Counted from the first letter of the stretch, positions 1-12,660 are shown. The stretch is 64,000 bases of DNA from Giardia intestinalis (GCA_000002435.2 CM018791.1), one strand, 5' to 3'. The notes: generated from the sequence alone by a model not told the origin. Made by a program: numbers and translations.

Positions 1-1214
1 ACCCAAATAAAGGAGTGGCTAATTGTGCAACCTGTACTGCAGCACAACAATGCACTAAGTGCCTTCCGGGCTTCTTTAAGACTAGTGCTACAGCTTGTGA
101 TGCTTGTGGTGATAACTGTGCCACATGTTCTGTTGCTGGTGATCCAAATAAGTGTGAAACCTGCAAGACTGGATACTTCTTGGTAACTACTACAGATCCA
201 CAGGGGAAGAAGTGTGTCCCCTGTGACAGTACAACAGATGGTGGCCGCGAAGGCTGCAGTGTCTGCTCTAGCAACGGTGGATTCAAGTGCACTGAATGTA
301 AGCCCAACTATAAGAAGCAGTCCAATGGTGATGCGGGGGATGACTATACATGTGTGAAGACCTGCGAGGACCCCACGGCTTGTGGTGGTACTTCTGGCGC
401 CTGTGATGCCATCGTAATCGACAACACAGGGAAGGAGCTTCACTACTGTTCATACTGTGGAAAGGACAGTGAGTTCCCCATTAATGGACTATGTGTTGGG
501 AATGAAAAGAAAGAGGGGAATAACTGTAACAGTCATACATGTACATCATGTACTACAGGATACTTCTTGTACATGGGAGGCTGCTATAAGTATGATACAG
601 AACCAGGAAGCCTCATGTGCAAGACCGCTGAAGGGGGCAAGTGCACAGTTGCCAATGATGGTAATAAGTACTTCGTAGTACCAGAGGCACAGACCACTGA
701 TCGGTCCGTGTTGGCCTGTGGCAACCCCCTTGGCACACTAGTAGGCACTGATAGTACCTCTAAGGCATACGTGGGGGTACTCAACTGTTCACAGTGTAAA
801 GCACCAGTAGCTCTGACAACAGTTGGTATGGCTGCCGCTGTCTGTACCTCCTGTGACAATAGTAAGAAGCCCAACAGGGATGGCAGTGGGTGCTTCCCAT
901 GTACCGTTAGTGGATGCTCGCACTGCAACAGGGATGACATGTGCGAGGCATGCAGTAGTGGTAAGAAGGTGAGCCCTGGAAGGAAGTCATGCGTGGATAG
1001 CTGCCCCAGCAACTCCACTGACACCGACTCTGTCTGTGTGTGCAACGATGGATACAGCCCTGACAGCAGTGGGACCTCCTGTGCGTCCTCTGGCACCAAC
1101 AGGAGCGGCCTCAGCACAGGGGCCATCGCGGGGATCGCCGTCGCCGTGGTCGTCGTTGTGGGGGGCCTCGTGGGCTTCCTCTGCTGGTGGTTCATATGTA
1201 GAGGGAAGGCGTGA
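1..1214 (+). CDS. VSP (variant-specific surface protein) unit 1, truncated at its 5' end by the window edge. Ends with a TM helix plus the CRGKA tail.
   Basis: Frame 0 is open from nt 3 to a TGA at 1212-1214. Numerous CXXC motifs. GGCYK motif. C-terminal '...GAIAGIAVAVVVVVGGLVGFLCWWFICRGKA*', a hydrophobic TM helix followed by the invariant 5-aa CRGKA tail. The first ~190 nt are identical to an internal segment of unit 3 (3886 onward). Confidence 0.85.
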   Translation, partial: PNKGVANCATCTAAQQCTKCLPGFFKTSATACDACGDNCATCSVAGDPNKCETCKTGYFLVTTTDPQGKKCVPCDSTTDGGREGCSVCSSNGGFKCTECKPNYKKQSNGDAGDDYTCVKTCEDPTACGGTSGACDAIVIDNTGKELHYCSYCGKDSEFPINGLCVGNEKKEGNNCNSHTCTSCTTGYFLYMGGCYKYDTEPGSLMCKTAEGGKCTVANDGNKYFVVPEAQTTDRSVLACGNPLGTLVGTDSTSKAYVGVLNCSQCKAPVALTTVGMAAAVCTSCDNSKKPNRDGSGCFPCTVSGCSHCNRDDMCEACSSGKKVSPGRKSCVDSCPSNSTDTDSVCVCNDGYSPDSSGTSCASSGTNRSGLSTGAIAGIAVAVVVVVGGLVGFLCWWFICRGKA

Positions 1215-1221
1215 CTTAGGT

Positions 1222-1228
1222 AGTGAAT
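1222..1228 (+). promoter_or_regulatory. Putative Giardia polyadenylation signal AGTGAAT (AGTRAAY class), 8 nt after the unit 1 stop.
   Basis: The motif 'cttaggtAGTGAATgct' recurs after every VSP unit. The Giardia poly(A) signal consensus is AGTRAAY, located within about 30 nt of the stop. Confidence 0.6.
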
Positions 1229-1236
1229 GCTGTACA

Positions 1237-1283
1237 GTGATAGTGATAGTGATAGTGCTATGTGGTGTGTGGGGTGATAGTGG
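1237..1283. repeat. Inter-VSP spacer microsatellite (GTGATA)3 followed by a GT-rich 'GTGTGTGGGGTGATAGTGGTGGTGTGGG' segment.
   Basis: Direct reading: gtgata gtgata gtgata gtg at 1237-1257, then gtgatagtgg at 1274-1283. The 6-nt period keeps one frame open ('VIVIVIV') while placing TGA and TAG in the other two. Confidence 0.85.
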
Positions 1284-1302
1284 TGGTGTGGGACTCCTCT
1301 TC

Positions 1303-3168
1303 ATGGGCGGGTGCTACAACAGGACAAGACCTGGCAGTGAGATATGCACAGCAGCCAGTAACGGAGTATGCACTGCTTGTAATACAAAGAACGGCCTGTT
1401 CAAGAACCCAGTTACACCTCAGAAGCCTGGTAGTGAGTGCATCCTCTGCTGGGACACGGTGGGAGATGGCGCGACGAAGGGAGTAGAGAACTGCGCACAG
1501 TGTCAGGCACCACAGAGTGCAGGAGCAGCTACATGCACTGCCTGTCAAGATGGATACTATAAGAACGCTCAGACATGTGAGAAGTGTGATCAGTCCTGTC
1601 TGACCTGTGAGACTACAGAGACCCAGTGTACCTCTTGTAAGGGAAATACGTTCCTGAAGGATAATGCATGCGTGAATAGTGATGGATGCACTGGAAACAC
1701 TTATGCTGACCCTGTGACAATGACCTGCAAGGCGTCTGCAATAACTGATTGCACCACGTGTGAGTACAACCCGGCAACTGGGGGCCCAAAGTGCACGGCA
1801 TGTAATGGAGCTAAGATAGTCAAGGAAGAGGCCGACGGGACGACTACGTGTATAGACGCCGGCACCTGCACTCAAAGCGGAGCAACTGGTGAGAACTTCT
1901 TGAGCGACGGAGATGCCGAATGCATACTATGTAGCAACGATAGCAGCAAGACAGATAATAACAAGGGAAGCCCCGGTTGCGGGACCTGCAGCAAGAACGG
2001 CGCTAAGCCAGAATGCAAGACGTGCCTCGATGGCTACTACGACAGCGGGAACGGTAACCCCGCCGTATGCGTTGCGTGCGCTGGCGATTGCGGAAAGTGC
2101 GGGCCAGGAGGCGCTATAGATACCTGTGAAAAGTGCAAGCCAGGGTTTTTCTTAAAGAATGACGGGGCCAAGAAGTGCGTCCCCTGCGACGATCCGACAG
2201 ATGGAGTGCCCGGCTGTGCAACGTGCACCTTCTCTAACTCGTTTACTTGTGACTCTTGTAAGGTGAACTACCAAAAGAAGGTAGGGGCTGGAGGAGCGGT
2301 CACGTGTGAGAAGACTTGTGAAGACCCTACTGCTTGTGGTGGTACTTCTGGCGCCTGCGATGCAATAGTGATCGACAACACAGGGAAGGAGCTTCACTAC
2401 TGTTCATACTGTGGAAAGGACAGTGAGTTCCCCATTAATGGACTATGTGTTGGGAATGAAAAGAAAGAGGGGAATAACTGTAACAGTCATACATGTACAT
2501 CATGTACTACAGGATACTTCTTGTACATGGGAGGCTGCTATAAGTATGATACAGAACCAGGAAGCCTCATGTGCAAGACCGCTGAAGGGGGCAAGTGCAC
2601 AGTTGCCAATGATGGTAATAAGTACTTCGTAGTACCAGAGGCACAGACCACTGATCGGTCCGTGTTGGCCTGTGGCAACCCCCTTGGCACACTAGTAGGC
2701 ACTGATAGTACCTCTAAGGCATACGTGGGGGTACTCAACTGTTCACAGTGTACAGCCCCAGCAGCTCCATCTGAGGGTGGCATGACTGCCGCCACGTGCA
2801 CAGCGTGTACCAACAACAACAAGCCCAACCTGGCTGGGAGCGGGTGCTTCCCATGTACCGTTAGTGGATGCTCGCACTGCAACAGGGATGACATGTGCGA
2901 GGCATGCAGTAGTGGTAAGAAGGTGAGCCCTGGAAGGAAGTCATGCGTGGATAGCTGCCCCAGCAACTCCACTGACACCGACTCTGTCTGTGTGTGCAAC
3001 GATGGATACAGCCCTGACAGCAGTGGGACCTCCTGTGCGTCCTCTGGCACCAACAGGAGCGGGCTCTCCACGGGGGCCATCGCGGGCATCTCCGTCGCTG
3101 TGGTCGTCGTCGTGGGGGGCCTCGTGGGCTTCTTGTGTTGGTGGTTCGTGTGTAGAGGGAAGGCGTGA
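1303..3168 (+). CDS. VSP unit 2, N-terminally truncated. The first in-frame ATG lies inside the GGCY motif and there is no signal peptide. Possible silent cassette or pseudogene.
   Basis: The VSP-homologous frame runs from about 1285 to a TGA at 3166-3168 and ends in CRGKA. The ORF-track extension back to 1036 merely reads unit 1's 3' end in the +1 frame. The only in-frame ATG after the previous stop is 1303, giving 'MGGCYNRTRPGSEICTAASNGVCTACN', which has no hydrophobic leader. Nearly identical to unit 6. Confidence 0.8.
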   Translation: MGGCYNRTRPGSEICTAASNGVCTACNTKNGLFKNPVTPQKPGSECILCWDTVGDGATKGVENCAQCQAPQSAGAATCTACQDGYYKNAQTCEKCDQSCLTCETTETQCTSCKGNTFLKDNACVNSDGCTGNTYADPVTMTCKASAITDCTTCEYNPATGGPKCTACNGAKIVKEEADGTTTCIDAGTCTQSGATGENFLSDGDAECILCSNDSSKTDNNKGSPGCGTCSKNGAKPECKTCLDGYYDSGNGNPAVCVACAGDCGKCGPGGAIDTCEKCKPGFFLKNDGAKKCVPCDDPTDGVPGCATCTFSNSFTCDSCKVNYQKKVGAGGAVTCEKTCEDPTACGGTSGACDAIVIDNTGKELHYCSYCGKDSEFPINGLCVGNEKKEGNNCNSHTCTSCTTGYFLYMGGCYKYDTEPGSLMCKTAEGGKCTVANDGNKYFVVPEAQTTDRSVLACGNPLGTLVGTDSTSKAYVGVLNCSQCTAPAAPSEGGMTAATCTACTNNNKPNLAGSGCFPCTVSGCSHCNRDDMCEACSSGKKVSPGRKSCVDSCPSNSTDTDSVCVCNDGYSPDSSGTSCASSGTNRSGLSTGAIAGISVAVVVVVGGLVGFLCWWFVCRGKA

Positions 3169-3175
3169 CTTAGGT

Positions 3176-3182
3176 AGTGAAT
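3176..3182 (+). promoter_or_regulatory. Putative polyadenylation signal AGTGAAT after unit 2.
   Basis: Same conserved 3' flank as the other units. Confidence 0.6.
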
Positions 3183-3194
3183 GCTATACAATGT

Positions 3195-3250
3195 GTGATA
3201 GAGGGTGATAATGGGTGATAATGGGTGATAGGGTGATAGTGGAGTGTGAT
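3195..3250. repeat. Inter-VSP spacer ~10-nt repeat GTGATARNGG, five degenerate copies.
   Basis: gtgatagagg / gtgataatgg / gtgataatgg / gtgataggg / tgatagtgg / agtgtgat. Contains TGA/TAG in all three frames. TAG at 3237-3239 closes the body frame nine nt upstream of the GTG 'start'. Confidence 0.85.
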
Positions 3251-5066
3251 ATGCACAGCAGCCAGTAATGGAGTGTGCACTGAGTGTAATACAGATAGTC
3301 AGTACATATTCCAGAACAGGGCTACACCTCAGAAACCTGGTAGTGAGTGCATTCTGTGCTGGGACACGGTGGGAGATGGCGCGACAAAGGGAGTAGAGAA
3401 CTGCGCCACATGTACAGCGCCAGCTAGTAGTCCAGGAGCTGCCACGTGCGCTGAGTGCAAGGCAGGGTACTATAAAGAGAATAACGAATGCAAACCATGC
3501 CAGGAGAACTGTGCCACATGTACCGGGGCCGGTCAGAATCAGTGTTCATCTTGTAAAGCGGGCTTCTATCTGAAGACTGACAAGTCATGCTCAGAAACCT
3601 GCGATAATAACCAGTACTCCAACCCAAGCACCGGCAAGTGCACAGCCTGTAGTGATGCAGAAGCGGGGATAGCTGATTGCGACACATGCACATACGATAC
3701 GACGCTGCAGAAGCCGAAGTGCACAGCCTGTGGTAGCAGTGGGAAAAAGGTGAAGACGGCCATCGACGGCACCACGACATGTGTTACTGTTACATCCGAT
3801 TGCGTAGACGAGAATCACTTCAAGGCAGATGATGACTCAGCTTGTTATCTATGTAGTGATACAACAGGAACAGACCCAAATAAAGGAGTGGCTAATTGTG
3901 CAACCTGTACTGCAGCACAACAATGCACTAAGTGCCTTCCGGGCTTCTTTAAGACTAGTGCTACAGCTTGTGATGCTTGTGGTGATAACTGTGCCACATG
4001 TTCTGTTGCTGGTGATCCAAATAAGTGTGAAACCTGCAAGACTGGATACTTCTTGGTAACTACTACAGATCCACAGGGGAAGAAGTGTGTCCCCTGTGAC
4101 AGTACAACAGATGGTGGCCGCGAAGGCTGCAGTGTCTGCTCTAGCAACGGTGGATTCAAGTGCACTGAATGTAAGCCCAACTATAAGAAGCAGTCCAATG
4201 GTGATGCGGGGGATGACTATACATGTGTGAAGACCTGCGAGGACCCCACGGCTTGTGGTGGTACTTCTGGCGCCTGTGATGCCATCGTAATCGACAACAC
4301 AGGGAAGGAGCTTCACTACTGTTCTTACTGTGGAAAGGACAGTGAGTTCCCTATTGATGGTATATGTAATAGTGATAAAGGAACTAATCAATGTAATCAA
4401 GGTGTATGTACATCATGTACTACGGGGTACTTTATGTACATGAATGGTTGTTACAAGGTGACAGAGGTGCCGGGTAAGTCCATGTGCACAAAGGCAGGTG
4501 ATGGTGTCTGCACAGAGGCGGCAGCTGGGTACTTCATCCCTCCCTCGCCCACCAAGGACAAGCAGTCTGTCCTCTCCTGTGGGAACCCCCTTGGGGTCGA
4601 GCTGGCTGGTCAGAAGGCATACGTAGGAGTAGATGGCTGCTCCCAGTGTAAAGCACCAGTAGCTCTGACAACAGTTGGTATGGCTGCCGCTGTCTGTACC
4701 TCCTGTGACAATAGTAAGAAGCCCAACAGGGATGGCAGTGGGTGCTTCACATGTACCGTTAGTGGATGCTCGCACTGCAACAGGGATGACATGTGCGAGG
4801 CATGCAGTAGTGGTAAGAAGGTGAGCCCTGGAAGGAAGTCATGCGTGGATAGCTGCCCCAGCAACTCCACTGACACCGACTCTGTCTGTGTGTGCAACGA
4901 TGGATACAGCCCTGACAGCAGTGGGACCTCCTGTGCGTCCTCTGGCACCAACAGGAGCGGGCTCTCCACGGGGGCCATCGCGGGCATCTCCGTGGCTGTG
5001 GTCGTTGTCGTGGGGGGCCTCGTGGGCTTCCTCTGCTGGTGGTTCATATGTAGAGGGAAGGCGTAG
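3246..5066 (+). CDS. VSP unit 3. There is no ATG; the ORF-track start is a GTG. No signal peptide; ends in CRGKA. Possible silent cassette or pseudogene.
   Basis: Positions 3246-3248 are GTG. A TAG at 3237-3239, within the GTGATA spacer, closes the frame immediately upstream. None of the five ATGs in the spacer is in the body frame, and each meets a stop within 6-16 codons. The first in-frame ATG is about 1.2 kb downstream ('GYFMYMNGCYKV'). CXXC-rich. Conserved 'CEDPTACGGTSGACDAIVID...HYCSYCG' core. TM helix plus CRGKA, TAG at 5064-5066. Confidence 0.8.
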   Translation: MICTAASNGVCTECNTDSQYIFQNRATPQKPGSECILCWDTVGDGATKGVENCATCTAPASSPGAATCAECKAGYYKENNECKPCQENCATCTGAGQNQCSSCKAGFYLKTDKSCSETCDNNQYSNPSTGKCTACSDAEAGIADCDTCTYDTTLQKPKCTACGSSGKKVKTAIDGTTTCVTVTSDCVDENHFKADDDSACYLCSDTTGTDPNKGVANCATCTAAQQCTKCLPGFFKTSATACDACGDNCATCSVAGDPNKCETCKTGYFLVTTTDPQGKKCVPCDSTTDGGREGCSVCSSNGGFKCTECKPNYKKQSNGDAGDDYTCVKTCEDPTACGGTSGACDAIVIDNTGKELHYCSYCGKDSEFPIDGICNSDKGTNQCNQGVCTSCTTGYFMYMNGCYKVTEVPGKSMCTKAGDGVCTEAAAGYFIPPSPTKDKQSVLSCGNPLGVELAGQKAYVGVDGCSQCKAPVALTTVGMAAAVCTSCDNSKKPNRDGSGCFTCTVSGCSHCNRDDMCEACSSGKKVSPGRKSCVDSCPSNSTDTDSVCVCNDGYSPDSSGTSCASSGTNRSGLSTGAIAGISVAVVVVVGGLVGFLCWWFICRGKA

Positions 5067-5076
5067 GTACTTAGGT

Positions 5077-5083
5077 AGTGAAT
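5077..5083 (+). promoter_or_regulatory. Putative polyadenylation signal AGTGAAT after unit 3.
   Basis: Same conserved 3' flank. Confidence 0.6.
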
Positions 5084-5094
5084 GCTGTACAATG

Positions 5095-5152
5095 TGTGAT
5101 AGAAGGTGATAGTGGGTGATAATGGGTGATAGAGGGTGATAGTGGAGTGTGA
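5095..5152. repeat. Inter-VSP spacer GTGATARNGG-type repeat.
   Basis: gtgatagaaggtgatagtgggtgataatgggtgatagagggtgatagtggagtgtgat. Same architecture as 3195-3250. Confidence 0.85.
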
Positions 5153-6870
5153 TATGCACAAAGGCTGAGGGAGGAGTGTGCACTGCTTGTAAGGCAGATA
5201 ACGGCCTGTTCAAGAACCCGGCTGCAGCACCGAAGCCTGGTAGTGAGTGCATACTGTGCTCTGATATCAAGGGAGCAGATGGATATACGGGGGTGGCTAA
5301 CTGCGCACAGTGTACCAAGTCAGACAGTAGTCCAGGAGCAGCCACGTGTAGTACCTGCAGAGATGGATACTACATGGACTCTCAGGCATGTGTCAAATGT
5401 AATGACGCTTGTCTGACCTGCGATGGAAGTGGTCCGAATCAGTGTACATCGTGCCCAGAGGGGAAGTACCTGAAGACTGACAAGTCATGCGTGAATAATA
5501 ATGGATGCACTGGAAACACTTATGCTGACCCTGTGACAATGACCTGCAAGGATTCTGCAATAACTGATTGCACCACGTGTGAGTACAATGCGACCGTCAG
5601 TAAGCCCCAGTGCACCGCCTGTAATAACAATAAGAAGGTGAAGACGGCCATCGACGGCACCACGACATGTGTTACTGTTACATCCGATTGCGTAGACGAG
5701 AATCACTTCAAGGCAGATGATGACTCAGCTTGTTATCTATGTAGTGATACAACAGGAACAGACCCAAATAAAGGAGTGGCTAATTGTGCAACCTGTACTG
5801 CAGCACAACAATGCACTAAGTGCCTTCCGGGCTTCTTTAAGACTAGTGCTACAGCTTGTGATGCTTGTGGTGATAACTGTGCCACATGTTCTGTTGCTGG
5901 TGATCCAAATAAGTGTGAAACCTGCAAGACTGGATACTTCTTAGTAACTACTACAGATCAACAGGGGAAGAAGTGCGTCCCATGCGATAGCGTAGACGAT
6001 AAGGGTCGCGAAGGCTGCAGTGTCTGCTCTAACAACGGTGCTTTCAAGTGCACTGACTGTAAGCCTAACTATCGCAAGGAGGGCAGTACTGGCTCTGTCA
6101 CATGCACCAAGATCTGTGAAGATGATACTGCCTGTGGAGGAACTTCTGGTGCCTGCGATGCAATAGTGATTGATGATAAGGGTGTAGAGCATCATTATTG
6201 CTCATACTGTGGAGAAGCTAATACGTATCCTATAGATGGGAAGTGTAATAGTGCTAAAGCAAATAATCAATGTGATCAAGGTGTATGTACACAATGCACT
6301 AACAACTACTTCTTGTATATGGGAGGTTGTTACAAGGTTGATACAGTACCTGGACAACATATGTGCAAGACAGCAGCCAACGGTGTCTGTACTGCTGTTA
6401 ATGCCAACAATAGGTACTTCATAGTCCCTGGGGCAACCAATCAGAATCAGTCTGTATTGGCATGTAGCAACTCCCTTGGCACACTAGTAGGCACTGGTGA
6501 TACCTCTAAGGCATATGTGGGGGTAGATGGCTGTTCGGCATGTACGGCCCCAGCAGCTCTGTCTGATGGTGGTATGACTGCCGCTGTGTGTACCTCCTGT
6601 GACAGTGGTAAGGTGCCCAACAAGGACGGCAGTGGGTGTGTGACATGCTCTGTGGGTGATTGTAAGAGCTGTGTGATGGATAATATATGTGAAGAGTGCA
6701 ACAGTGGTTTCAGCATAGACAGCAGTGGGGCCTCCTGTGTGTCTATGAGTACCAACAGGAGCGGGCTCTCCACGGGGGCCATCGCGGGGATCTCCGTCGC
6801 TGTGGTCGTTGTCGTGGGGGGCCTCGTGGGCTTCCTCTGCTGGTGGTTCATATGTAGAGGGAAGGCATGA
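5149..6870 (+). CDS. VSP unit 4, the most divergent copy. There is no ATG; the ORF-track start is a GTG. No signal peptide; ends in CRGKA.
   Basis: Positions 5149-5151 are GTG. The frame is open to a TGA at 6868-6870. Its C-terminal cysteine module is distinct ('CVTCSVGDCKSCVMDNICEECNSGFSIDSSGASCVSMSTNRSGLSTG...') but the TM helix and CRGKA tail are the same. The 5' half is shared with unit 7. Confidence 0.8.
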   Translation: MICTKAEGGVCTACKADNGLFKNPAAAPKPGSECILCSDIKGADGYTGVANCAQCTKSDSSPGAATCSTCRDGYYMDSQACVKCNDACLTCDGSGPNQCTSCPEGKYLKTDKSCVNNNGCTGNTYADPVTMTCKDSAITDCTTCEYNATVSKPQCTACNNNKKVKTAIDGTTTCVTVTSDCVDENHFKADDDSACYLCSDTTGTDPNKGVANCATCTAAQQCTKCLPGFFKTSATACDACGDNCATCSVAGDPNKCETCKTGYFLVTTTDQQGKKCVPCDSVDDKGREGCSVCSNNGAFKCTDCKPNYRKEGSTGSVTCTKICEDDTACGGTSGACDAIVIDDKGVEHHYCSYCGEANTYPIDGKCNSAKANNQCDQGVCTQCTNNYFLYMGGCYKVDTVPGQHMCKTAANGVCTAVNANNRYFIVPGATNQNQSVLACSNSLGTLVGTGDTSKAYVGVDGCSACTAPAALSDGGMTAAVCTSCDSGKVPNKDGSGCVTCSVGDCKSCVMDNICEECNSGFSIDSSGASCVSMSTNRSGLSTGAIAGISVAVVVVVGGLVGFLCWWFICRGKA

Positions 6871-6877
6871 CTCAGGT

Positions 6878-6884
6878 AGTGAAT
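6878..6884 (+). promoter_or_regulatory. Putative polyadenylation signal AGTGAAT after unit 4.
   Basis: Same conserved 3' flank ('ctcaggtagtgaat'). Confidence 0.6.
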
Positions 6885-6890
6885 GCTATA

Positions 6891-6950
6891 CAATGTGTGA
6901 TAATGGGTAATAGAGGGTGATAGTGTGATAGTGATAGTGGAGTGTGATAT
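6891..6950. repeat. Inter-VSP spacer GTGATA-type repeat (degenerate 10-nt and 6-7-nt copies).
   Basis: gtgtgataatgggtaatagagggtgatagtgtgatagtgatagtggagtgtgat. Confidence 0.8.
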
Positions 6951-8791
6951 GCACAAAGGCCAGTAGTGGACTGTGCACTGCTTGTAAGACAGATAACAAG
7001 TACATATTCCAGAACAGGGCAGACAAGGTGACTCCTGGTGGGGAGTGCATCTTGTGCTCTGATATCAAGGGAGCGAATGAGAACAAAGGAGTGGCCAACT
7101 GCCTCAAGTGCACGGCGCCAGCTAGTAGTCCAGGACCTGCCACGTGTACTGAGTGCAAGGCTGGGTACGTTAAGGATAGCGTTTCTAATACGTGTAAGAA
7201 GTGCGGAGAGGGCTGCTCAGAGAGTAATCAAAATCAATGCTCGGCATGCGTTGAGGGGAAGTACCTGAAGGGTGATAACACTTGTGTAGAGGCTAGTGGA
7301 TGCGGTGCTGGTAACTATGCAGACCCGACAACAGGCCAATGTAAGGCATGTGATCCCGACATAGCTGGGTGCACCGCATGTGAATATAATGATGCCACGG
7401 GGAAGCCAAGGTGCACCAACTGCGGGACCAATAAGACCCCCAGGACGACCCTTGATGGGACCTCGACCTGTGTGACAAAAGACTACGCTGGATGTAAAGG
7501 CGCTGACGGGGCCCTATTTATGAAGGAGGACAAAACATGTGTTTTATGCAGTACCGTTTCAGCTGGAGCCGATCCAAATGACCAGGGCATTGCCGGGTGT
7601 AAGAAGTGTACCAAGGACTCGGCGACACCGCCAACCTGCTCGGAGTGCCTCGACGGATATTACAATAGCGCAACTGGTGGTAGTGGTACGGCTACATGTG
7701 AAGCTTGTGGTGATAATTGTGCCACCTGTGCTAAGGATACAAAAGACCAATGCATGACCTGTAAGCCCGGGTTCTTCATGAAAGGTAGTGGTCCTGGCAC
7801 ATGCGTCCCCTGTGATGACCAAACAGATGGAGTGCCTGGCTGTGCAACGTGCACCTTCTCTAGCTCGTTGACCTGCAACTCCTGTAAGCCCAACTACAAG
7901 CAGAGTGGTACCGGTCCTTTTACATGCACCAAGACTTGTGAAGACCCCACTGCCTGCGGGGGCACTTCTGGTGCCTGCGATGCCATGATAATTGATGATC
8001 AGGGCACCACAAAGCACTACTGTTCCTACTGTGGAGAGACCAATAAGATACCAATTGATGGGAAGTGTGTTGATAGTGGTAGTATAAATGGTAATACTTG
8101 TGCTAAAGGTGTATGTACACAGTGTGCTCAAGGATACTTCTTATACATGGGAGGCTGTTATAAGGTAGCAAGTCCACCCGGTAACCTCATGTGCACTGAA
8201 GCAACAACAGCTGGTGTCTGTGATACACCCAATGCCAATAATAAGTACTTCGTAGTCCCAGAAGCAAAGCCTACTCAACAGTCTGTGTTGGCTTGTGGTA
8301 ACCCCCTGGGCACACTAGTAGGCACTGATAGTACCGCTAAGGCATATGTGGGGGTGGATGGCTGCTCCCAGTGTACAGCCCCAACAGCTCCATCTGAGGG
8401 TGGCATGACTGCCGCCACGTGCACAGCGTGTACCAACAACAACAAGCCCAACCTGGCTGGGAGCGGGTGCTTCCCATGTACCGTTAGTGGATGCTCGCAC
8501 TGCAACAGGGATGACATGTGCGAGGCATGCAGTAGTGGTAAGAAGGTGAGCCCTGGAAGGAAGTCATGCGTGGATAGCTGCCCCAGCAACTCCACTGATG
8601 ATAACTCTGTCTGTGTGTGCAACGATGGATACAGCCCTGACAGCAGTGGGACCTCCTGTGTGTCCTCTGGCGCCAACAGGAGCGGCCTCAGCACAGGGGC
8701 CATCGCGGGGATCGCCGTCGCCGTGGTCGTCGTTGTGGGGGGCCTCGTGGGCTTCCTCTGCTGGTGGTTCATATGTAGAGGGAAGGCGTGA
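6944..8791 (+). CDS. VSP unit 5. There is no ATG; the ORF-track start is a GTG. No signal peptide; ends in CRGKA.
   Basis: Positions 6944-6946 are GTG. TGA at 8789-8791. CXXC-rich with a GGCYK motif. The C-terminal 100 aa are nearly identical to the other units. The 3' end plus the following spacer are identical to the unit 1 to unit 2 junction. Confidence 0.8.
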   Translation: MICTKASSGLCTACKTDNKYIFQNRADKVTPGGECILCSDIKGANENKGVANCLKCTAPASSPGPATCTECKAGYVKDSVSNTCKKCGEGCSESNQNQCSACVEGKYLKGDNTCVEASGCGAGNYADPTTGQCKACDPDIAGCTACEYNDATGKPRCTNCGTNKTPRTTLDGTSTCVTKDYAGCKGADGALFMKEDKTCVLCSTVSAGADPNDQGIAGCKKCTKDSATPPTCSECLDGYYNSATGGSGTATCEACGDNCATCAKDTKDQCMTCKPGFFMKGSGPGTCVPCDDQTDGVPGCATCTFSSSLTCNSCKPNYKQSGTGPFTCTKTCEDPTACGGTSGACDAMIIDDQGTTKHYCSYCGETNKIPIDGKCVDSGSINGNTCAKGVCTQCAQGYFLYMGGCYKVASPPGNLMCTEATTAGVCDTPNANNKYFVVPEAKPTQQSVLACGNPLGTLVGTDSTAKAYVGVDGCSQCTAPTAPSEGGMTAATCTACTNNNKPNLAGSGCFPCTVSGCSHCNRDDMCEACSSGKKVSPGRKSCVDSCPSNSTDDNSVCVCNDGYSPDSSGTSCVSSGANRSGLSTGAIAGIAVAVVVVVGGLVGFLCWWFICRGKA

Positions 8792-8798
8792 CTTAGGT

Positions 8799-8805
8799 AG
8801 TGAAT
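8799..8805 (+). promoter_or_regulatory. Putative polyadenylation signal AGTGAAT after unit 5.
   Basis: Same conserved 3' flank. Confidence 0.6.
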
Positions 8806-8813
8806 GCTGTACA

Positions 8814-8860
8814 GTGATAGTGATAGTGATAGTGCTATGTGGTGTGTGGGGTGATAGTGG
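8814..8860. repeat. Inter-VSP spacer (GTGATA)3 plus a GT-rich segment, identical to 1237-1283.
   Basis: The whole 88-nt junction 8792-8879 is identical to 1215-1302. Confidence 0.85.
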
Positions 8861-8879
8861 TGGTGTGGGACTCCTCTTC

Positions 8880-10748
8880 ATGGGCGGGTGCTACAAGGCA
8901 GGACAAGATCCTGGCAGTGAGATATGCACAGCAGCCAGTAACGGAGTATGCACTGCTTGTAATACAAAGAACGGCCTGTTCAAGAACCCAGTTACACCTC
9001 AGAAGCCTGGTAGTGAGTGCATCCTCTGCTGGGACACGGTGGGAGATGGCGCGACGAAGGGAGTAGAGAACTGCGCACAGTGTCAGGCACCACAGAGTGC
9101 AGGAGCAGCTACATGCACTGCCTGTCAAGATGGATACTATAAGAACGCTCAGACATGTGAGAAGTGTGATCAGTCCTGTCTGACCTGTGAGACTACAGAG
9201 ACCCAGTGTACCTCTTGTAAGGGAAATACGTTCCTGAAGGATAATGCATGCGTGAATAGTGATGGATGCACTGGAAACACTTATGCTGACCCTGTGACAA
9301 TGACCTGCAAGGCGTCTGCAATAACTGATTGCACCACGTGTGAGTACAACCCGGCAACTGGGGGCCCAAAGTGCACGGCATGTAATGGAGCTAAGATAGT
9401 CAAGGAAGAGGCCGACGGGACGACTACGTGTATAGACGCCGGCACCTGCACTCAAAGCGGAGCAACTGGTGAGAACTTCTTGAGCGACGGAGATGCCGAA
9501 TGCATACTATGTAGCAACGATAGCAGCAAGACAGATAATAACAAGGGAAGCCCCGGTTGCGGGACCTGCAGCAAGAACGGCGCTAAGCCAGAATGCAAGA
9601 CGTGCCTCGATGGCTACTACGACAGCGGGAACGGTAACCCCGCCGTATGCGTTGCGTGCGCTGGCGATTGCGGAAAGTGCGGGCCAGGAGGCGCTATAGA
9701 TACCTGTGAAAAGTGCAAGCCAGGGTTTTTCTTAAAGAATGACGGGGCCAAGAAGTGCGTCCCCTGCGACGATCCGACAGATGGAGTGCCCGGCTGTGCA
9801 ACGTGCACCTTCTCTAACTCGTTTACTTGTGACTCTTGTAAGGTGAACTACCAAAAGAAGGTAGGGGCTGGAGGAGCGGTCACGTGTGAGAAGACTTGTG
9901 AAGACCCTACTGCTTGTGGTGGTACTTCTGGCGCCTGCGATGCAATAGTGATCGACAACACAGGGAAGGAGCTTCACTACTGTTCATACTGTGGAAAGGA
10001 CAGTGAGTTCCCCATTAATGGACTATGTGTTGGGAATGAAAAGAAAGAGGGGAATAACTGTAACAGTCATACATGTACATCATGTACTACAGGATACTTC
10101 TTGTACATGGGAGGCTGCTATAAGTATGATACAGAACCAGGAAGCCTCATGTGCAAGACCGCTGAAGGGGGCAAGTGCACAGTTGCCAATGATGGTAATA
10201 AGTACTTCGTAGTACCAGAGGCACAGACCACTGATCGGTCCGTGTTGGCCTGTGGCAACCCCCTTGGCACACTAGTAGGCACTGATAGTACCTCTAAGGC
10301 ATACGTGGGGGTACTCAACTGTTCACAGTGTACAGCCCCAGCAGCTCCATCTGAGGGTGGCATGACTGCCGCCACGTGCACAGCGTGTACCAACAACAAC
10401 AAGCCCAACCTGGCTGGGAGCGGGTGCTTCCCATGTACCGTTAGTGGATGCTCGCACTGCAACAGGGATGACATGTGCGAGGCATGCAGTAGTGGTAAGA
10501 AGGTGAGCCCTGGAAGGAAGTCATGCGTGGATAGCTGCCCCAGCAACTCCACTGACACCGACTCTGTCTGTGTGTGCAACGATGGATACAGCCCTGACAG
10601 CAGTGGGACCTCCTGTGCGTCCTCTGGCACCAACAGGAGCGGGCTCTCCACGGGGGCCATCGCGGGGATCTCCGTCGCCGTGGTCGTTGTCGTGGGGGGC
10701 CTCGTGGGCTTCCTCTGCTGGTGGTTCATATGTAGAGGGAAGGCGTGA
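8880..10748 (+). CDS. VSP unit 6, a near-duplicate of unit 2. The first in-frame ATG lies inside the GGCY motif and there is no signal peptide.
   Basis: ATG at 8880-8882 giving 'MGGCYKAGQDPGSEICTAAS...'. The remainder is identical to unit 2 at the protein level apart from one 3-nt indel with adjacent substitutions near the start. It lies 7577-7580 nt downstream of unit 2. TGA at 10746-10748. The ORF-track start at 8598 is an out-of-frame read-through of unit 5's 3' end. Confidence 0.8.
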   Translation: MGGCYKAGQDPGSEICTAASNGVCTACNTKNGLFKNPVTPQKPGSECILCWDTVGDGATKGVENCAQCQAPQSAGAATCTACQDGYYKNAQTCEKCDQSCLTCETTETQCTSCKGNTFLKDNACVNSDGCTGNTYADPVTMTCKASAITDCTTCEYNPATGGPKCTACNGAKIVKEEADGTTTCIDAGTCTQSGATGENFLSDGDAECILCSNDSSKTDNNKGSPGCGTCSKNGAKPECKTCLDGYYDSGNGNPAVCVACAGDCGKCGPGGAIDTCEKCKPGFFLKNDGAKKCVPCDDPTDGVPGCATCTFSNSFTCDSCKVNYQKKVGAGGAVTCEKTCEDPTACGGTSGACDAIVIDNTGKELHYCSYCGKDSEFPINGLCVGNEKKEGNNCNSHTCTSCTTGYFLYMGGCYKYDTEPGSLMCKTAEGGKCTVANDGNKYFVVPEAQTTDRSVLACGNPLGTLVGTDSTSKAYVGVLNCSQCTAPAAPSEGGMTAATCTACTNNNKPNLAGSGCFPCTVSGCSHCNRDDMCEACSSGKKVSPGRKSCVDSCPSNSTDTDSVCVCNDGYSPDSSGTSCASSGTNRSGLSTGAIAGISVAVVVVVGGLVGFLCWWFICRGKA

Positions 10749-10755
10749 CTTAGGT

Positions 10756-10762
10756 AGTGAAT
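10756..10762 (+). promoter_or_regulatory. Putative polyadenylation signal AGTGAAT after unit 6.
   Basis: Same conserved 3' flank. Confidence 0.6.
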
Positions 10763-10774
10763 GCTGTACAATGT

Positions 10775-10830
10775 GTGATAGAAGGTGATAGTGGGTGATA
10801 ATGGGTGATAGAGGGTGATAGTGGAGTGTG
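10775..10830. repeat. Inter-VSP spacer GTGATARNGG-type repeat.
   Basis: gtgatagaaggtgatagtgggtgataatgggtgatagagggtgatagtggagtgtgat, identical to the 5095-5152 spacer. Confidence 0.85.
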
Positions 10831-12633
10831 ATATGCACAAAGGCTGAGGGAGGAGTGTGCACTGCTTGTAAGGCAGATAACGGCCTGTTCAAGAACCCAG
10901 TTACACCTCAGAAGCCTGGTGGGGAGTGCATACTGTGCTCTGATATCAAGGGAGCAGATGGATATACGGGGGTGGCTAACTGCGCACAGTGTACCAAGTC
11001 AGACAGTAGTCCAGGAGCAGCCACGTGTAGTACCTGCAGAGATGGATACTACATGGACTCTCAGGCATGTGTCAAATGTAATGACGCTTGTCTGACCTGC
11101 GATGGAAGTGGTCCGAATCAGTGTACATCGTGCCCAGAGGGGAAGTACCTGAAGACTGACAAGTCATGCGTGAATAATAATGGATGCACTGGAAACACTT
11201 ATGCTGACCCTGTGACAATGACCTGCAAGGATTCTGCAATAACTGATTGCACCACGTGTGAGTACAATGCGACCGTCAGTAAGCCCCAGTGCACCGCCTG
11301 TAATAACAATAAGAAGGTGAAGACGGCCATCGACGGCACCACGACATGTGTTACTGTTACATCCGATTGCGTAGACGAGAATCACTTCAAGGCAGATGAT
11401 GACTCAGCTTGTTATCTATGTAGTGATACAACAGGAACAGACCCAAATAAAGGAGTGGCTAATTGTGCAACCTGTACTGCAGCACAACAATGCACTAAGT
11501 GCCTTCCGGGCTTCTTTAAGACTAGTGCTACAGCTTGTGATGCTTGTGGTGATAACTGTGCCACATGTTCTGTTGCTGGTGATCCAAATAAGTGTGAAAC
11601 CTGCAAGACTGGATACTTCTTGGTAACTACTACAGATCCACAGGGGAAGAAGTGTGTCCCCTGTGACAGTACAACAGATGGTGGCCGCGAAGGCTGCAGT
11701 GTCTGCTCTAGCAACGGTGGATTCAAGTGCACTGAATGTAAGCCCAACTATAAGAAGCAGTCCAATGGTGATGCGGGGGATGACTATACATGTGTGAAGA
11801 CCTGCGAGGACCCCACGGCTTGTGGTGGTACTTCTGGCGCCTGTGATGCCATCGTAATCGACAACACAGGGAAGGAGCTTCACTACTGTTCTTACTGTGG
11901 AAAGGACAGTGAGTTCCCTATTGATGGTATATGTAATAGTGATAAAGGAACTAATCAATGTAATCAAGGTGTATGTACATCATGTACTACGGGGTACTTT
12001 ATGTACATGAATGGTTGTTACAAGGTGACAGAGGTGCCGGGTAAGTCCATGTGCACAAAGGCAGGTGATGGTGTCTGCACAGAGGCGGCAGCTGGGTACT
12101 TCATCCCTCCCTCGCCCACCAAGGACAAGCAGTCTGTCCTCTCCTGTGGGAACCCCCTTGGGGTCGAGCTGGCTGGCCAGAAGGCATACGTAGGAGTAGA
12201 TGGCTGTTCACAGTGTACAGCACCAAAACAGCTAGAGGCTCCTGGCATGACTCCTGCTATATGTACCTCTTGTGACAGTAGTAAGAAGCCCAACAGGGAT
12301 GGCAGTGGGTGCTTCCCATGTACCGTTAGTGGATGCTCGCACTGTGATATGGACAACATGTGCGAGGCATGCAGTAGTGGTAAGAAGGTGAGCCCTGGAA
12401 GGAAGTCATGCGTGGATAGCTGCCCCAGCAACTCCACTGATGATAACTCTGTCTGTGTGTGCAACGATGGATATAGCCCTGACAGCAGTGGGACCTCCTG
12501 TGTGTCCTCTGGCGCCAACAGGAGCGGCCTCAGCACAGGGGCCATCGCGGGGATCTCCGTCGCTGTGGTCGTCGTCGTGGGGGGCCTCGTCGGCTTCCTC
12601 TGCTGGTGGTTCGTGTGCAGGGGGAAGGCGTAG
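10828..12633 (+). CDS. VSP unit 7, the terminal unit. It is a chimera of the unit 4 5' half and the unit 3 3' half. There is no ATG; the ORF-track start is a GTG. Ends in CRGKA.
   Basis: Positions 10828-10830 are GTG. The N-terminal ~270 aa match unit 4 ('MICTKAEGGVCTACKADNGLFKNP...'). From 'DPQGKKCVPCDSTTDGGREGCSVCSSNGGFKCTECKPNYKKQSNGDAGDDY' onward it matches unit 3. TAG at 12631-12633. Its 3' flank differs from the others: a duplicated 'acttag', AGTAAAC instead of AGTGAAT, and no GTGATA repeat. Confidence 0.8.
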   Translation: MICTKAEGGVCTACKADNGLFKNPVTPQKPGGECILCSDIKGADGYTGVANCAQCTKSDSSPGAATCSTCRDGYYMDSQACVKCNDACLTCDGSGPNQCTSCPEGKYLKTDKSCVNNNGCTGNTYADPVTMTCKDSAITDCTTCEYNATVSKPQCTACNNNKKVKTAIDGTTTCVTVTSDCVDENHFKADDDSACYLCSDTTGTDPNKGVANCATCTAAQQCTKCLPGFFKTSATACDACGDNCATCSVAGDPNKCETCKTGYFLVTTTDPQGKKCVPCDSTTDGGREGCSVCSSNGGFKCTECKPNYKKQSNGDAGDDYTCVKTCEDPTACGGTSGACDAIVIDNTGKELHYCSYCGKDSEFPIDGICNSDKGTNQCNQGVCTSCTTGYFMYMNGCYKVTEVPGKSMCTKAGDGVCTEAAAGYFIPPSPTKDKQSVLSCGNPLGVELAGQKAYVGVDGCSQCTAPKQLEAPGMTPAICTSCDSSKKPNRDGSGCFPCTVSGCSHCDMDNMCEACSSGKKVSPGRKSCVDSCPSNSTDDNSVCVCNDGYSPDSSGTSCVSSGANRSGLSTGAIAGISVAVVVVVGGLVGFLCWWFVCRGKA

Positions 12634-12653
12634 ACTTAGCTGTGTACTTAGGT

Positions 12654-12660
12654 AGTAAAC
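12654..12660 (+). promoter_or_regulatory. Putative polyadenylation signal AGTAAAC (the canonical Giardia form) after the terminal unit 7.
   Basis: 'tacttaggtAGTAAACgc'. The flank differs from the internal junctions and marks the array boundary. Confidence 0.6.

What the first reader, a model, noticed from the sequence alone, without database searches (positions are those of the whole stretch)
3745..11640. Segmental mosaicism between units: unit 7 is the unit 4 5' half joined to the unit 3 3' half, with the switch inside a ~330-nt segment identical in units 3, 4 and 7
Unit 7 (10828-12633) matches unit 4 from its start through '...CSVAGDPNKCETCKTGYFLVTTTD'. It then follows unit 3 ('PQGKKCVPCDSTTDGGREGCSVCSSNGGFKCTECKPNYKKQSNGDAGDDY...EFPIDGICNSDKGTNQCNQGVCTSCTTGYFMYMNGCYKVTEVPGKSMCTKAGDGVC...') rather than unit 4 ('QQGKKCVPCDSVDDKGREGCSVCSNNGAFKCTDC...'). 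The switch falls within the block 'KVKTAIDGTTTCVTVTSDCVDENHFKADDDSACYLCSDTTGTDPNKGVANCATC...KTGYFLVTTTD', which is identical at the nucleotide level in unit 3 (~3745-4070), unit 4 (~5633-5958) and unit 7 (~11312-11640).

Unit 1 is also mosaic: a unit-3-like middle, a unit-2-like 'EFPINGLCVGNEKKEGNNCNSHTCTSCTTGYFLYMGGCYKYDTEPGSLMCKTAEGGKCTVANDGNKYF...' segment, then a unit-3-like 'KAPVALTTVGMAAAVCTSCDNSKKPNRDGSGCF' segment. Patchwork identity like this indicates repeated gene conversion or unequal crossing-over among cassettes.
Basis: seen in the sequence. Interest (0 to 1): 0.75.

Follow-up and report, generated by a model that had tools for sequence, protein, structure and literature searches.

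The report
Mosaic Giardia VSP pseudogene cassette array
Seven head-to-tail, "headless" copies of the Giardia surface-antigen (VSP) gene have exchanged perfectly identical blocks of a few hundred bases with each other; this is real, but it is an already-described way in which this parasite reshuffles its antigen gene repertoire.

Summary
Window 1-12633 is a head-to-tail array of seven Giardia intestinalis WB VSP units that all lack a start codon and signal peptide (pseudo-VSP cassettes).

- **Unit 7:** it equals unit 4 over 10748-11621, apart from one 8-nt micro-patch, and equals unit 3 over 11314-12176 with no differences. Outside these tracts the pairs differ at 24-30% of sites.
- **Three-way block:** it is 308 nt (3747-4054 = 5635-5942 = 11314-11621), not about 330 nt.
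- **Unit 1:** it is a clean mosaic of unit 3, unit 2, unit 3 and unit 5 with no private substitutions.
- **Statistics:** a GENECONV-style permutation test gives global p ≤ 0.0005.

Recent homologous recombination, mainly non-reciprocal gene conversion, is the best explanation. Unit 7's neighbours do not fit a single unequal crossover. The direction is unresolved: unit 7 could equally be the donor to units 3 and 4.

The phenomenon is published. VSP linear arrays with short spacers, proposed as recombination cassettes and tested with GENECONV, were described by Adam et al. 2010. Pseudo-VSP arrays were described by Xu et al. 2020. This is therefore a clean new example of a known kind.

One extra: the intact VSP GL50803_00114674, the next coding gene upstream of the window, is identical to cassette 5 over 483 residues.

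The parts
1..1214 (+). Unit 1 (U1), 3' part of a pseudo-VSP cassette cut by the window start. It is a mosaic: 1-416/451 = U3 and U7; 417/452-791/798 = U2 and U6; 792-1095 = U3 (1 mismatch); 1096-1214 = U5.
   Evidence: Exact matches. Triplet sites (168 U3-type, 124 U2-type, 32 U3-type, 0 private). Painting. Ends in CRGKA*.
1215..3168 (+). Unit 2 (U2), a pseudo-VSP cassette with the longer head (in-frame MGGCY..., no signal peptide). It is 99.6% identical to U6; 1330-3086 equals 8910-10666 exactly.
3169..5066 (+). Unit 3 (U3), a pseudo-VSP cassette. 3747-4609 is identical to U7 11314-12176. 4750-4993 is identical to U2 2852-3095.
   Evidence: Pfam PF03302, E = 3.9e-43.
5067..6870 (+). Unit 4 (U4), a pseudo-VSP cassette. 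5069-5219 and 5245-5942 are identical to U7 10748-10898 and 10924-11621.
6871..8791 (+). Unit 5 (U5), the most divergent cassette in its 5' two-thirds. Residues 133-615 of its translation are identical to residues 238-720 of the intact VSP GL50803_00114674 (KAE8303325.1), which lies outside the window.
8792..10748 (+). Unit 6 (U6), a near-duplicate of U2. Together with the U5 tail it forms a repeat of 1096-3086 at an offset of about 7.58 kb.
10749..12633 (+). Unit 7 (U7), the last cassette of the array and the mosaic unit of the finding.
   Evidence: Pfam PF03302, E = 5e-41.
10748..11621 (+). U4-type tract in U7: 873 nt with 8 differences, all of them in the micro-patch.
10899..10923 (+). Micro-patch inside the U4-type tract. 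It carries U2/U6-type bases (CCAGTTACACCTCAGAAGCCTGGT) followed by U5-type GGGGAG.
   Evidence: Alignment. It shows as the 'bbbb' run.
11314..11621 (+). U7 copy of the 308-nt block identical in U3, U4 and U7. Its last 181 nt are also in U1 (1-181).
3747..4054 (+). U3 copy of the 308-nt three-way identical block.
5635..5942 (+). U4 copy of the 308-nt three-way identical block.
11314..12176 (+). U3-type tract in U7: 863 nt with 0 differences.
12177..12633 (+). Distinct 3' end of U7. 12177-12306 is private to U7. 12307-12633 is closest to U5 (94.8%). It has its own stop context and 3' flank.
1096..1319 (+). Unit-boundary-spanning exact repeat (U1 tail + spacer + U2 head), equal to 8673-8896 (U5 tail + spacer + U6 head). 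It marks the 7.58-kb higher-order repeat.
5067..5148 (+). Example spacer. It has an AGTGAA polyadenylation-type signal 8-11 nt after the stop, then 4-5 copies of the decamer GTGATAGNGG. There is no in-frame ATG and no PyAATGTT initiator. Equivalent spacers follow each CRGKA stop (1215-1305, 3169-3245, 6871-6943, 8792-8882, 10749-10827).

Best explanation
The region is the distal part of a 'linear array' of variant-specific surface protein (VSP) pseudogene cassettes on the 1.97-Mb chromosome of Giardia intestinalis WB (assemblage AI).

Each cassette is an open, cysteine-rich VSP reading frame of about 600 codons. It has the transmembrane segment, the CRGKA tail and a poly(A) signal. It lacks the first ~100 codons: no start codon, signal peptide or initiator. 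Cassettes are separated by spacers of only 73-91 nt.

The patchwork of perfectly identical blocks (308-1757 nt, plus micro-patches of about 20 nt) among cassettes that are otherwise 67-76% identical was produced by recent mitotic homologous recombination between misaligned paralogous cassettes. This was mainly non-reciprocal gene conversion: a break in one cassette repaired by copying from another, with resolution in stretches of shared sequence. At least one multi-unit duplication or long tract is superimposed (1096-3086 = 8673-10666).

Shown:
- The mosaic structure.
- Its statistical significance.
- Absence of any private substitution in the tracts.
- The headless anatomy of the cassettes.
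- The genomic origin of the window.

Inferred:
- The mechanism (conversion rather than crossover).
- Recency.
- Direction. U4 and U3 may have donated to U7, or U7 may have donated to U4 and to U3; the latter explains the three-way block as the overlap of two tracts.

The likely consequence is continual reshuffling of an archive of silent VSP segments, which can also exchange with intact VSP genes.
For: - **Family:** all seven units end in CRGKA*, match Pfam PF03302 VSP and have about 25 CXXC motifs each.
- **Origin:** ten flanking ORFs are exact matches to WB proteins KAE8303326-3340 on the 1,973,847-bp contig.
- **No expression signals:** there is no PyAATGTT initiator. In-frame ATGs occur only in U2 and U6, and without a signal peptide.
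- **Exact tracts:**
- **Triplet analysis:** U7 has 185/189 U4-type sites, then 170/170 U3-type sites. U1 has 0 private differences at 334 sites.
- **Copying-model painting:**
- **Permutation test:** global p <= 0.0005 for the key pairs.
- **Divergence contrast:** divergence is 18-30% outside the tracts and 0 inside.
- **Not selection:** synonymous divergence between units is about 0.7-1.1 elsewhere, so identity at all sites in the tracts cannot be due to selection on the protein.
- **Against a single crossover:** U7 lies between a U2 copy and the array end and keeps a private 3' end.
- **Assembly quality:** the assembly is from PacBio reads (N50 12.7 kb, 200x), which span several 1.9-kb units.
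- **Published precedent:**
Against: - Only one genome copy was examined.
- Neither the direction nor the number of events can be fixed.
- Non-reciprocity cannot be demonstrated from a single haplotype.
- Illumina 75-bp reads were used to correct the assembly. In a tandem array this could erase or add isolated differences and make tracts look cleaner than they are.
- VSP positions are reported as conserved between the AI strains WB and Be-2. This argues that such events are not extremely frequent.
Confidence: 0.85

Rival explanations
1. Unequal crossing-over alone. Reciprocal exchange between misaligned sister chromatids or homologues generated the hybrid units and expanded the array, with no gene conversion.
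For: The 7.58-kb higher-order repeat is what an unequal crossover in the conserved 3' ends would produce. It is seen as 1096-1319 = 8673-8896, U2 = U6, and U3 3747-4609 = U7 11314-12176 at nearly the same offset. All units share the same headless structure and spacer, so the array did grow by duplication.
Against: A U4 x U3 crossover predicts the order U3-[5'U4/3'U3]-U4. U7 is instead preceded by U6 (a U2 copy) and followed by non-array DNA. Its U3-type tract ends at 12176, inside the unit. U1 needs three switches within 1.2 kb. The 25-nt micro-patch (10899-10923) and the clustered differences between U2 and U6 are patch-like. Patches bounded on both sides need conversion or double crossovers.
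Confidence: 0.08
2. Assembly or polishing artefact. The consensus of a tandem array in a tetraploid genome is chimeric, and the 'mosaic' units do not exist as such on any chromosome.
For: Tandem paralogues are the classic place for consensus chimeras. The assembly was corrected with 75-bp Illumina reads mapped by BWA. None of the unit proteins is on record in any independent assembly. Short-read Logan contigs all stop before the array.
Against: PacBio reads with N50 12.7 kb at 200x span several 1.9-kb units and every identical block, the longest being 1757 nt. Chimeric consensus would not give sharp, clean switches with zero noise at several hundred informative sites in two different units. 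Proteins from the older Sanger assembly independently contain long exact stretches of the same sequences, for example 200 aa of U4 in XP_001705784.
Confidence: 0.05
3. The identical blocks are simply the most conserved parts of the VSP fold, kept identical by purifying selection rather than by recombination.
For: The VSP 3' ends and some motifs (GGCY, CXXC, the TM segment) are conserved family-wide. 67 of 76 cysteine columns are invariant.
Against: The blocks are identical at every synonymous site, whereas dS between the same units elsewhere is 0.7-1.1. The blocks are shared by only particular pairs or triplets of units, and in the same columns the other units are about 30% different.
Confidence: 0.01

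Closest known systems
Giardia lamblia WB vsp 'linear arrays' (Adam et al. 2010, BMC Genomics 11:424, PMC2996952)
   Same: - Head-to-tail vsp units with very short spacers: mean 60 bp in the paper, 73-91 nt here.
- Downstream members lack the PyAatgTT initiator.
- The authors proposed them as non-expressed cassettes for recombination.
- GENECONV gave evidence of recombination.
- They noted 'long regions of 100% identity' between array members (vsp61/64).
- It is the same organism and strain.
   Different: That work used the fragmented Sanger assembly. Recombination tests were restricted to the 3' 234-657 bp, and arrays mostly sat on contigs under 10 kb. The seven units here have no protein record from that assembly. 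The breakpoint-level map given here (tracts of 300-1750 nt, micro-patches, 7.58-kb higher-order repeat) was not found in that paper.
Pseudo-VSP arrays in the PacBio WB genome and in Giardia muris (Xu et al. 2020, Sci Data PMC7000408; Microb Genom PMC7641422; Rodriguez-Walker et al. 2022, bioRxiv 10.1101/2022.03.07.483299)
   Same: [quoted passage not shown] They lack signal peptides. The arrays are regarded as reservoirs for recombination or segmental gene conversion with intact VSPs.
   Different: In G. muris the arrays are telomere-adjacent and the tail is CRGK. The evidence there is phylogenetic (relaxed clustering), not tract-level. The array here is chromosome-internal, next to a 5S rRNA gene and housekeeping genes.
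Silent-cassette segmental gene conversion systems: Trypanosoma brucei mosaic VSGs, Borrelia vlsE/vls, Neisseria pilE/pilS, Anaplasma msp2
   Same: There is an archive of promoter-less, 5'-truncated, in-frame cassettes arranged in tandem. Short-tract exchange produces mosaics. An intact gene nearby shares a long identical segment with one cassette.
   Different: In those systems, conversion into a single expression site is the switching mechanism during infection. In Giardia, switching among intact VSPs is attributed to post-transcriptional/RNAi and epigenetic control. No expression site, targeted break or infection-time conversion has been shown, and none can be shown from this window.
Concerted evolution of tandem multigene families by ectopic gene conversion (for example rDNA, primate globins, P. 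falciparum var mitotic recombination)
   Same: Homogenised 3' ends and patchy identity among tandem paralogues, with tract lengths of tens to about 1000 nt. This is established knowledge.
   Different: Here homogenisation is partial. It coexists with strongly diverged (dS about 1), open, cysteine-conserving reading frames, so diversity is retained rather than erased.

Membership tests
Giardia variant-specific surface protein (VSP, Pfam PF03302) | C-terminal transmembrane segment followed by the invariant CRGKA cytoplasmic tail | tested here: met
   All seven units end ...GLVGFLCWWF(I/V)CRGKA*.
Giardia variant-specific surface protein (VSP, Pfam PF03302) | Cysteine-rich ectodomain with many CXXC motifs and GGCY motif(s), and a significant match to the family profile | tested here: met
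   69-74 Cys and 25-26 CXXC per full unit. GGCY is present. PF03302 E-values are 5e-41 and 3.9e-43. The best database hits are all G. duodenalis VSPs.
Giardia variant-specific surface protein (VSP, Pfam PF03302) | ATG start with an N-terminal signal peptide (required for an intact, expressible VSP) | tested here: not met
   Five of the six complete units have no in-frame ATG before the VSP frame. U2 and U6 start at MGGCY..., with no hydrophobic leader. Alignment to the intact VSP P0009 shows the first ~94-106 residues are missing. These are therefore pseudo-VSPs, not VSP genes.
VSP linear array / pseudo-VSP array (Adam 2010; Xu 2020) | Two or more (Xu et al.: more than three) adjacent vsp units, head to tail, with very short intergenic spacers | tested here: met
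   Seven units lie on the + strand, with 73-91 nt from each stop to the next VSP-frame codon.
VSP linear array / pseudo-VSP array (Adam 2010; Xu 2020) | Downstream members lack the PyAatgTT initiator | tested here: met
   No YAATGTT occurs anywhere in 1-12700 on the + strand.
VSP linear array / pseudo-VSP array (Adam 2010; Xu 2020) | The first member is often an intact VSP with normal upstream sequence | tested here: inconclusive
   The next annotated CDS upstream on the same contig is the intact VSP GL50803_00114674 (KAE8303325.1, directly preceding KAE8303326.1, which is window 16543-17421). Its N-terminus is not in the window. Its distance and orientation are unknown.
Ectopic (interparalogue) gene conversion | Tracts of identity significantly longer than expected from the overall divergence, bounded by divergent sequence | tested here: met
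   (global p <= 0.0005).
Ectopic (interparalogue) gene conversion | Non-reciprocal transfer: the donor is unchanged and flanking markers are not exchanged | tested here: inconclusive
   The flanking units of U7 do not match the product of a single crossover. That favours conversion. Non-reciprocity itself cannot be shown from one haplotype.
Programmed antigenic variation by segmental conversion from silent cassettes (vls / pilS / mosaic VSG type) | Silent, promoter-less, truncated in-frame cassettes | tested here: met
   There are no stop codons in 7 x ~600 codons despite dS of about 1, and dN/dS is about 0.3.
Programmed antigenic variation by segmental conversion from silent cassettes (vls / pilS / mosaic VSG type) | Unidirectional transfer of cassette segments into an expressed gene during infection | not testable with these tools
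   Only a static protein-level identity is available: 483 aa between cassette 5 and the intact VSP GL50803_00114674. There are no time-series or expression data.

The most novel reading that the evidence does not exclude
The array may be an active donor archive. Cassette segments would be copied by segmental gene conversion into the adjacent intact VSP gene GL50803_00114674 (483 residues identical to cassette 5) and into other intact VSPs, on time scales short enough to matter within an infection or a clonal lineage. The supposedly asexual AI Giardia would then diversify its expressed antigens by DNA-level mosaic formation, as T. brucei does, on top of RNAi/epigenetic switching.

Two observations are compatible with cassettes being kept usable rather than decaying. 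The reading frames stay open with dN/dS of about 0.3 and dS of about 1. The tracts carry no substitutions at all.
Probability: 0.12. Interest if true: 0.8.

Novelty: new member of a known kind. Interest (0 to 1): 0.3.

Why it matters
Giardia antigenic variation is usually explained purely by choice among intact VSP genes through RNAi and epigenetic control. The 208 pseudo-VSPs, which outnumber the 133 intact VSPs in WB, have no demonstrated role.

This array gives an unusually clean, breakpoint-resolved example. Headless cassettes exchange tracts of 0.3-1.8 kb with one another with no subsequent mutation. One cassette shares two-thirds of its length with the neighbouring intact VSP.

That makes the 'cassette reservoir' hypothesis of Adam et al. 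concretely testable at one defined locus. The tests would be long-read comparison of WB sublines or Be-2, and a Cas9-induced break in the intact gene.

As a discovery it is incremental. The kind of locus, and recombination within it, are already in the literature.

Tried and rejected
- **Independent assemblies:** exact-product look-ups for U7 and U6 returned nothing. The mosaic junctions could therefore not be confirmed in independent assemblies.
- **DNA of the intact VSP:** the look-up for P0009 failed. The U5/intact-VSP identity is therefore known only at the protein level.
- **Supplementary tables:** Adam 2010 has no entry for 114674 in the files held.
- **Short-read contigs:** WB-like Logan contigs all end near window 15998, before the array, so they are uninformative.
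- **Other isolates:** the syntenic locus in isolate DH (assemblage AII) and in an ENA assembly loses homology at window 16015. It carries an ankyrin gene and a reverse transcriptase instead, so no orthologous array was available for comparison.
- **Stretch 12634-16500:** Pfam on its ORFs found nothing. There are no repeats of 60 nt or more in 12634-64000, and no further VSP-like sequence beyond 12700.
- **Rejected explanations:** selection-maintained identity, because synonymous sites are identical inside the tracts but dS is about 1 elsewhere; a single unequal crossover for U7, because the flanks do not fit.
- **The ORF listing artefacts:** the long ORFs 1036-3168 and 8598-10748 are mechanical. 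Their 5' ends run in another frame through the previous unit.

Full report
**What is there**

Window 1-12633 (+ strand) contains seven head-to-tail units. Each ends in the Giardia VSP signature ...CRGKA followed by a stop.

- **Family.** The units match Pfam PF03302 (VSP) at E about 1e-41 to 1e-43. Their best database relatives are all Giardia duodenalis VSPs, at no more than 65-70% identity, except unit 5.
- **Boundaries (stop to stop).** U1 1-1214 (cut by the window start), U2 1215-3168, U3 3169-5066, U4 5067-6870, U5 6871-8791, U6 8792-10748, U7 10749-12633.
- **Spacers.** Only 73-91 nt separate each stop from the next VSP-frame codon. Each spacer holds an AGTGAA poly(A)-type signal 8-11 nt after the stop and 4-5 copies of the decamer GTGATAGNGG.
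- **No expression signals.** No unit has a start codon with a signal peptide. Five of the six complete units have no in-frame ATG at all. U2 and U6 begin at MGGCY. The VSP initiator PyAATGTT does not occur anywhere in the array.
- **Missing head.** Aligned with an intact VSP, the units lack roughly the first 94-106 residues.

The units are therefore pseudo-VSP cassettes, not genes.

**Where it comes from**

Ten flanking ORFs (16543-56905) are exact matches to Giardia intestinalis WB (ATCC 50803) proteins KAE8303326 to KAE8303340, on the 1,973,847-bp contig of the PacBio reference assembly. That assembly used reads with N50 12.7 kb at 200x, followed by Illumina correction. [quoted passage not shown]

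**Checking the observation**

| Comparison | Coordinates | Result | Divergence outside the tract |
|---|---|---|---|
| U7 vs U4 | 10748-11621 | identical except a patch with 8 differences at 10899-10923 | 28% |
| U7 vs U3 | 11314-12176 | identical, 863 nt, 0 differences | 24% |
| U3 vs U4 | the 308-nt block only | identical | 29.5% |

- **Three-way block.** It is 308 nt: 3747-4054 = 5635-5942 = 11314-11621.
- **Informative sites in U7.** Where U3 and U4 differ, U7 reads U4-type at 185 of 189 sites and then U3-type at 170 consecutive sites.
- **U1.** It is U3-type at 1-416/451, U2/U6-type to 791/798, U3-type to 1095 and U5-type to 1214. It has no private substitution at 334 informative sites.
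- **Significance.** A GENECONV-style permutation of polymorphic sites gives global p <= 0.0005 for U3-U7, U4-U7, U3-U4, U1-U2 and U1-U3. Under uniform divergence the zero-difference tracts have log10 P between about -40 and -101.
- **Not selection.** Synonymous divergence between units is 0.7-1.1 elsewhere, so identity at every site within the tracts cannot be due to selection on the protein.

- The micro-patch 10899-10923 inside the U4-type tract is U2/U6-type.
- U7's last 457 nt are not U3-like. 12177-12306 is private to U7, and the rest is closest to U5.
- U1 also carries the last 181 nt of the block.
- U2 and U6 are identical over 1757 nt. An exact 224-nt match spans the U1/U2 and U5/U6 boundaries (1096-1319 = 8673-8896). 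The array therefore has a higher-order repeat of about 7.58 kb, or four units. U3 and U7 are positional counterparts in it.

**Mechanism**

The pattern requires homologous recombination among paralogous cassettes.

A single unequal crossover between U4 and U3 would place the hybrid between U3 and U4. U7 instead follows a U2 copy and is the last unit. Its donor-type sequence starts at the unit boundary and stops inside the unit at 12176. U1 needs three switches within 1.2 kb, and there are patches of about 20 nt. These are conversion-type patches: tracts bounded on both sides.

Unequal exchange or a long tract probably produced the 7.58-kb higher-order repeat and the array expansion itself, since all units share the same truncation and spacer.

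Direction is open. There are two readings.

- U7 donated two overlapping tracts, one to U4 (873 nt) and one to U3 (863 nt). This makes the 308-nt three-way block simply their overlap and needs no pre-existing shared segment.

The tracts are recent. About 4.1 kb of paralogous tract carries no difference, whereas the flanking single-copy DNA differs by 3.7% between WB and the assemblage-AII isolate DH. This dating is an inference.

**State of the cassettes**

Despite lacking expression signals, the seven frames have no stop codon in about 4000 codons. Between-unit dN/dS is about 0.3 with dS about 1, and 67 of 76 cysteine columns are invariant. Two explanations are possible. The diverged segments accumulated their differences while part of functional VSPs and were imported. 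Alternatively, the cassettes are kept usable by continuing exchange with expressed genes.

**Link to an intact VSP**

P0009 is KAE8303325.1, locus GL50803_00114674. It is 720 aa with a signal peptide, and Rodriguez-Walker et al. count it among the 136 complete WB VSPs. It is the coding gene numbered immediately before KAE8303326.1 (window 16543-17421) on the same contig. Its N-terminal 105 residues are not encoded in the window.

It therefore lies upstream of the window start with only pseudogenes in between. Most simply it is the head of this array, or sits within it, but its orientation and distance are unknown. Its residues 238-720 are identical to residues 133-615 of U5. Its DNA could not be retrieved.

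Proteins from the old assembly also share long exact stretches with the units. Examples are 200 aa of U4 in XP_001705784 and 140 aa of U2 in XP_001707661.

**Comparison with what is known**

- Adam et al. 2010 described WB vsp linear arrays. Spacers averaged 60 bp and downstream members lacked the initiator. [quoted passage not shown] They found GENECONV evidence of recombination and 'long regions of 100% identity' between array members.
- Xu et al. 2020 annotated 208 pseudo-VSPs in WB. [quoted passage not shown]
- A 2025 population study found VSPs enriched among gene-conversion events in assemblage A and considers AI asexual.
- VSP switching itself is attributed to RNAi and epigenetic control.

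The finding is therefore a correct, particularly clean, breakpoint-level instance of a published phenomenon, in an array that the older assembly had not resolved.

**Verdict**

- Novelty: a new member of a known kind. Interest: about 0.3.
- The most novel reading still open is ongoing cassette-to-intact-gene conversion as part of antigenic diversification. It is suggested by the U5/GL50803_00114674 identity and by the maintained reading frames. Nothing here demonstrates it.

Noticed in passing
window 13987-14106 (+): A complete 5S rRNA gene (Rfam RF00001, 85 bits, E = 2.5e-17). It sits in the ORF-poor, GC-rich (56-60%) stretch between the end of the VSP array (12633) and GL50803_0010241 (16543-17421). 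Pfam finds nothing in the ORFs of this stretch.
   Followed up: partly
window ~16015; L007 11375 onward; L008: Synteny with the assemblage-AII isolate DH (AHGT01000031.1) and with an ENA assembly runs at 96.3% identity from window 27420 down to 16015 and then stops. DH carries an ankyrin-repeat gene and a reverse-transcriptase (RVT_1) gene where WB has the 5S gene and the VSP array. All WB-like short-read Logan contigs also end at about 15998.
   Followed up: partly
window 7340-8788 (U5 residues 133-615) versus P0009: The intact VSP GL50803_00114674 (KAE8303325.1) is the next annotated CDS upstream of the window on the same 1.97-Mb contig. It is identical to cassette U5 over 483 residues, to the end of the protein. 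Its N-terminal third is different and includes a signal peptide. Only protein-level comparison was possible.
   Followed up: partly
window 1096-3086 versus 8673-10666: A higher-order repeat of about 7.58 kb (four units). The U1-tail/spacer/U2 sequence equals U5-tail/spacer/U6 except for a 10-nt indel patch at 1320-1329. The U2/U6 differences are confined to that patch and to the last 82 nt.
   Followed up: yes
window 3190-3239, 5096-5142, 10775-10821 (and 1235-1290, 8812-8867): Every spacer contains 4-5 tandem copies of a G-rich decamer (GTGATAGNGG, or GTGATA hexamers in U2/U6). The same motif, read as 'SDSDS', forms the spurious N-termini of VSP models from the old annotation, such as XP_001703902 and XP_001707663. 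The spacer type is therefore shared by other WB arrays. Its role, if any, is unknown.
   Followed up: partly
window 1-12633, all units: The cassettes have no expression signals, yet there is no stop codon in about 4000 codons. dN/dS is about 0.3 at dS of about 1, and 67 of 76 Cys columns are invariant. This is not the decay expected of old neutral pseudogenes.
   Followed up: partly
window 1036-3168 and 8598-10748 (+): The mechanical ORF list extends U2 and U6 upstream by about 90 codons, in a different frame through the 3' end of the preceding unit (translation ...TALTAVGPPV...). This is an overlap artefact, not a real N-terminus.
   Followed up: yes
P0015, P0061, P0074 (XP_001705783, XP_001705784, XP_001707661) versus U4, U7, U2: VSP models from the 2007 WB assembly share exact stretches of 113-200 residues with window units and then diverge, in one case inside the 308-nt block region. 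They are either collapsed versions of this array in the old assembly or further paralogues with breakpoints in the same region.
   Followed up: no
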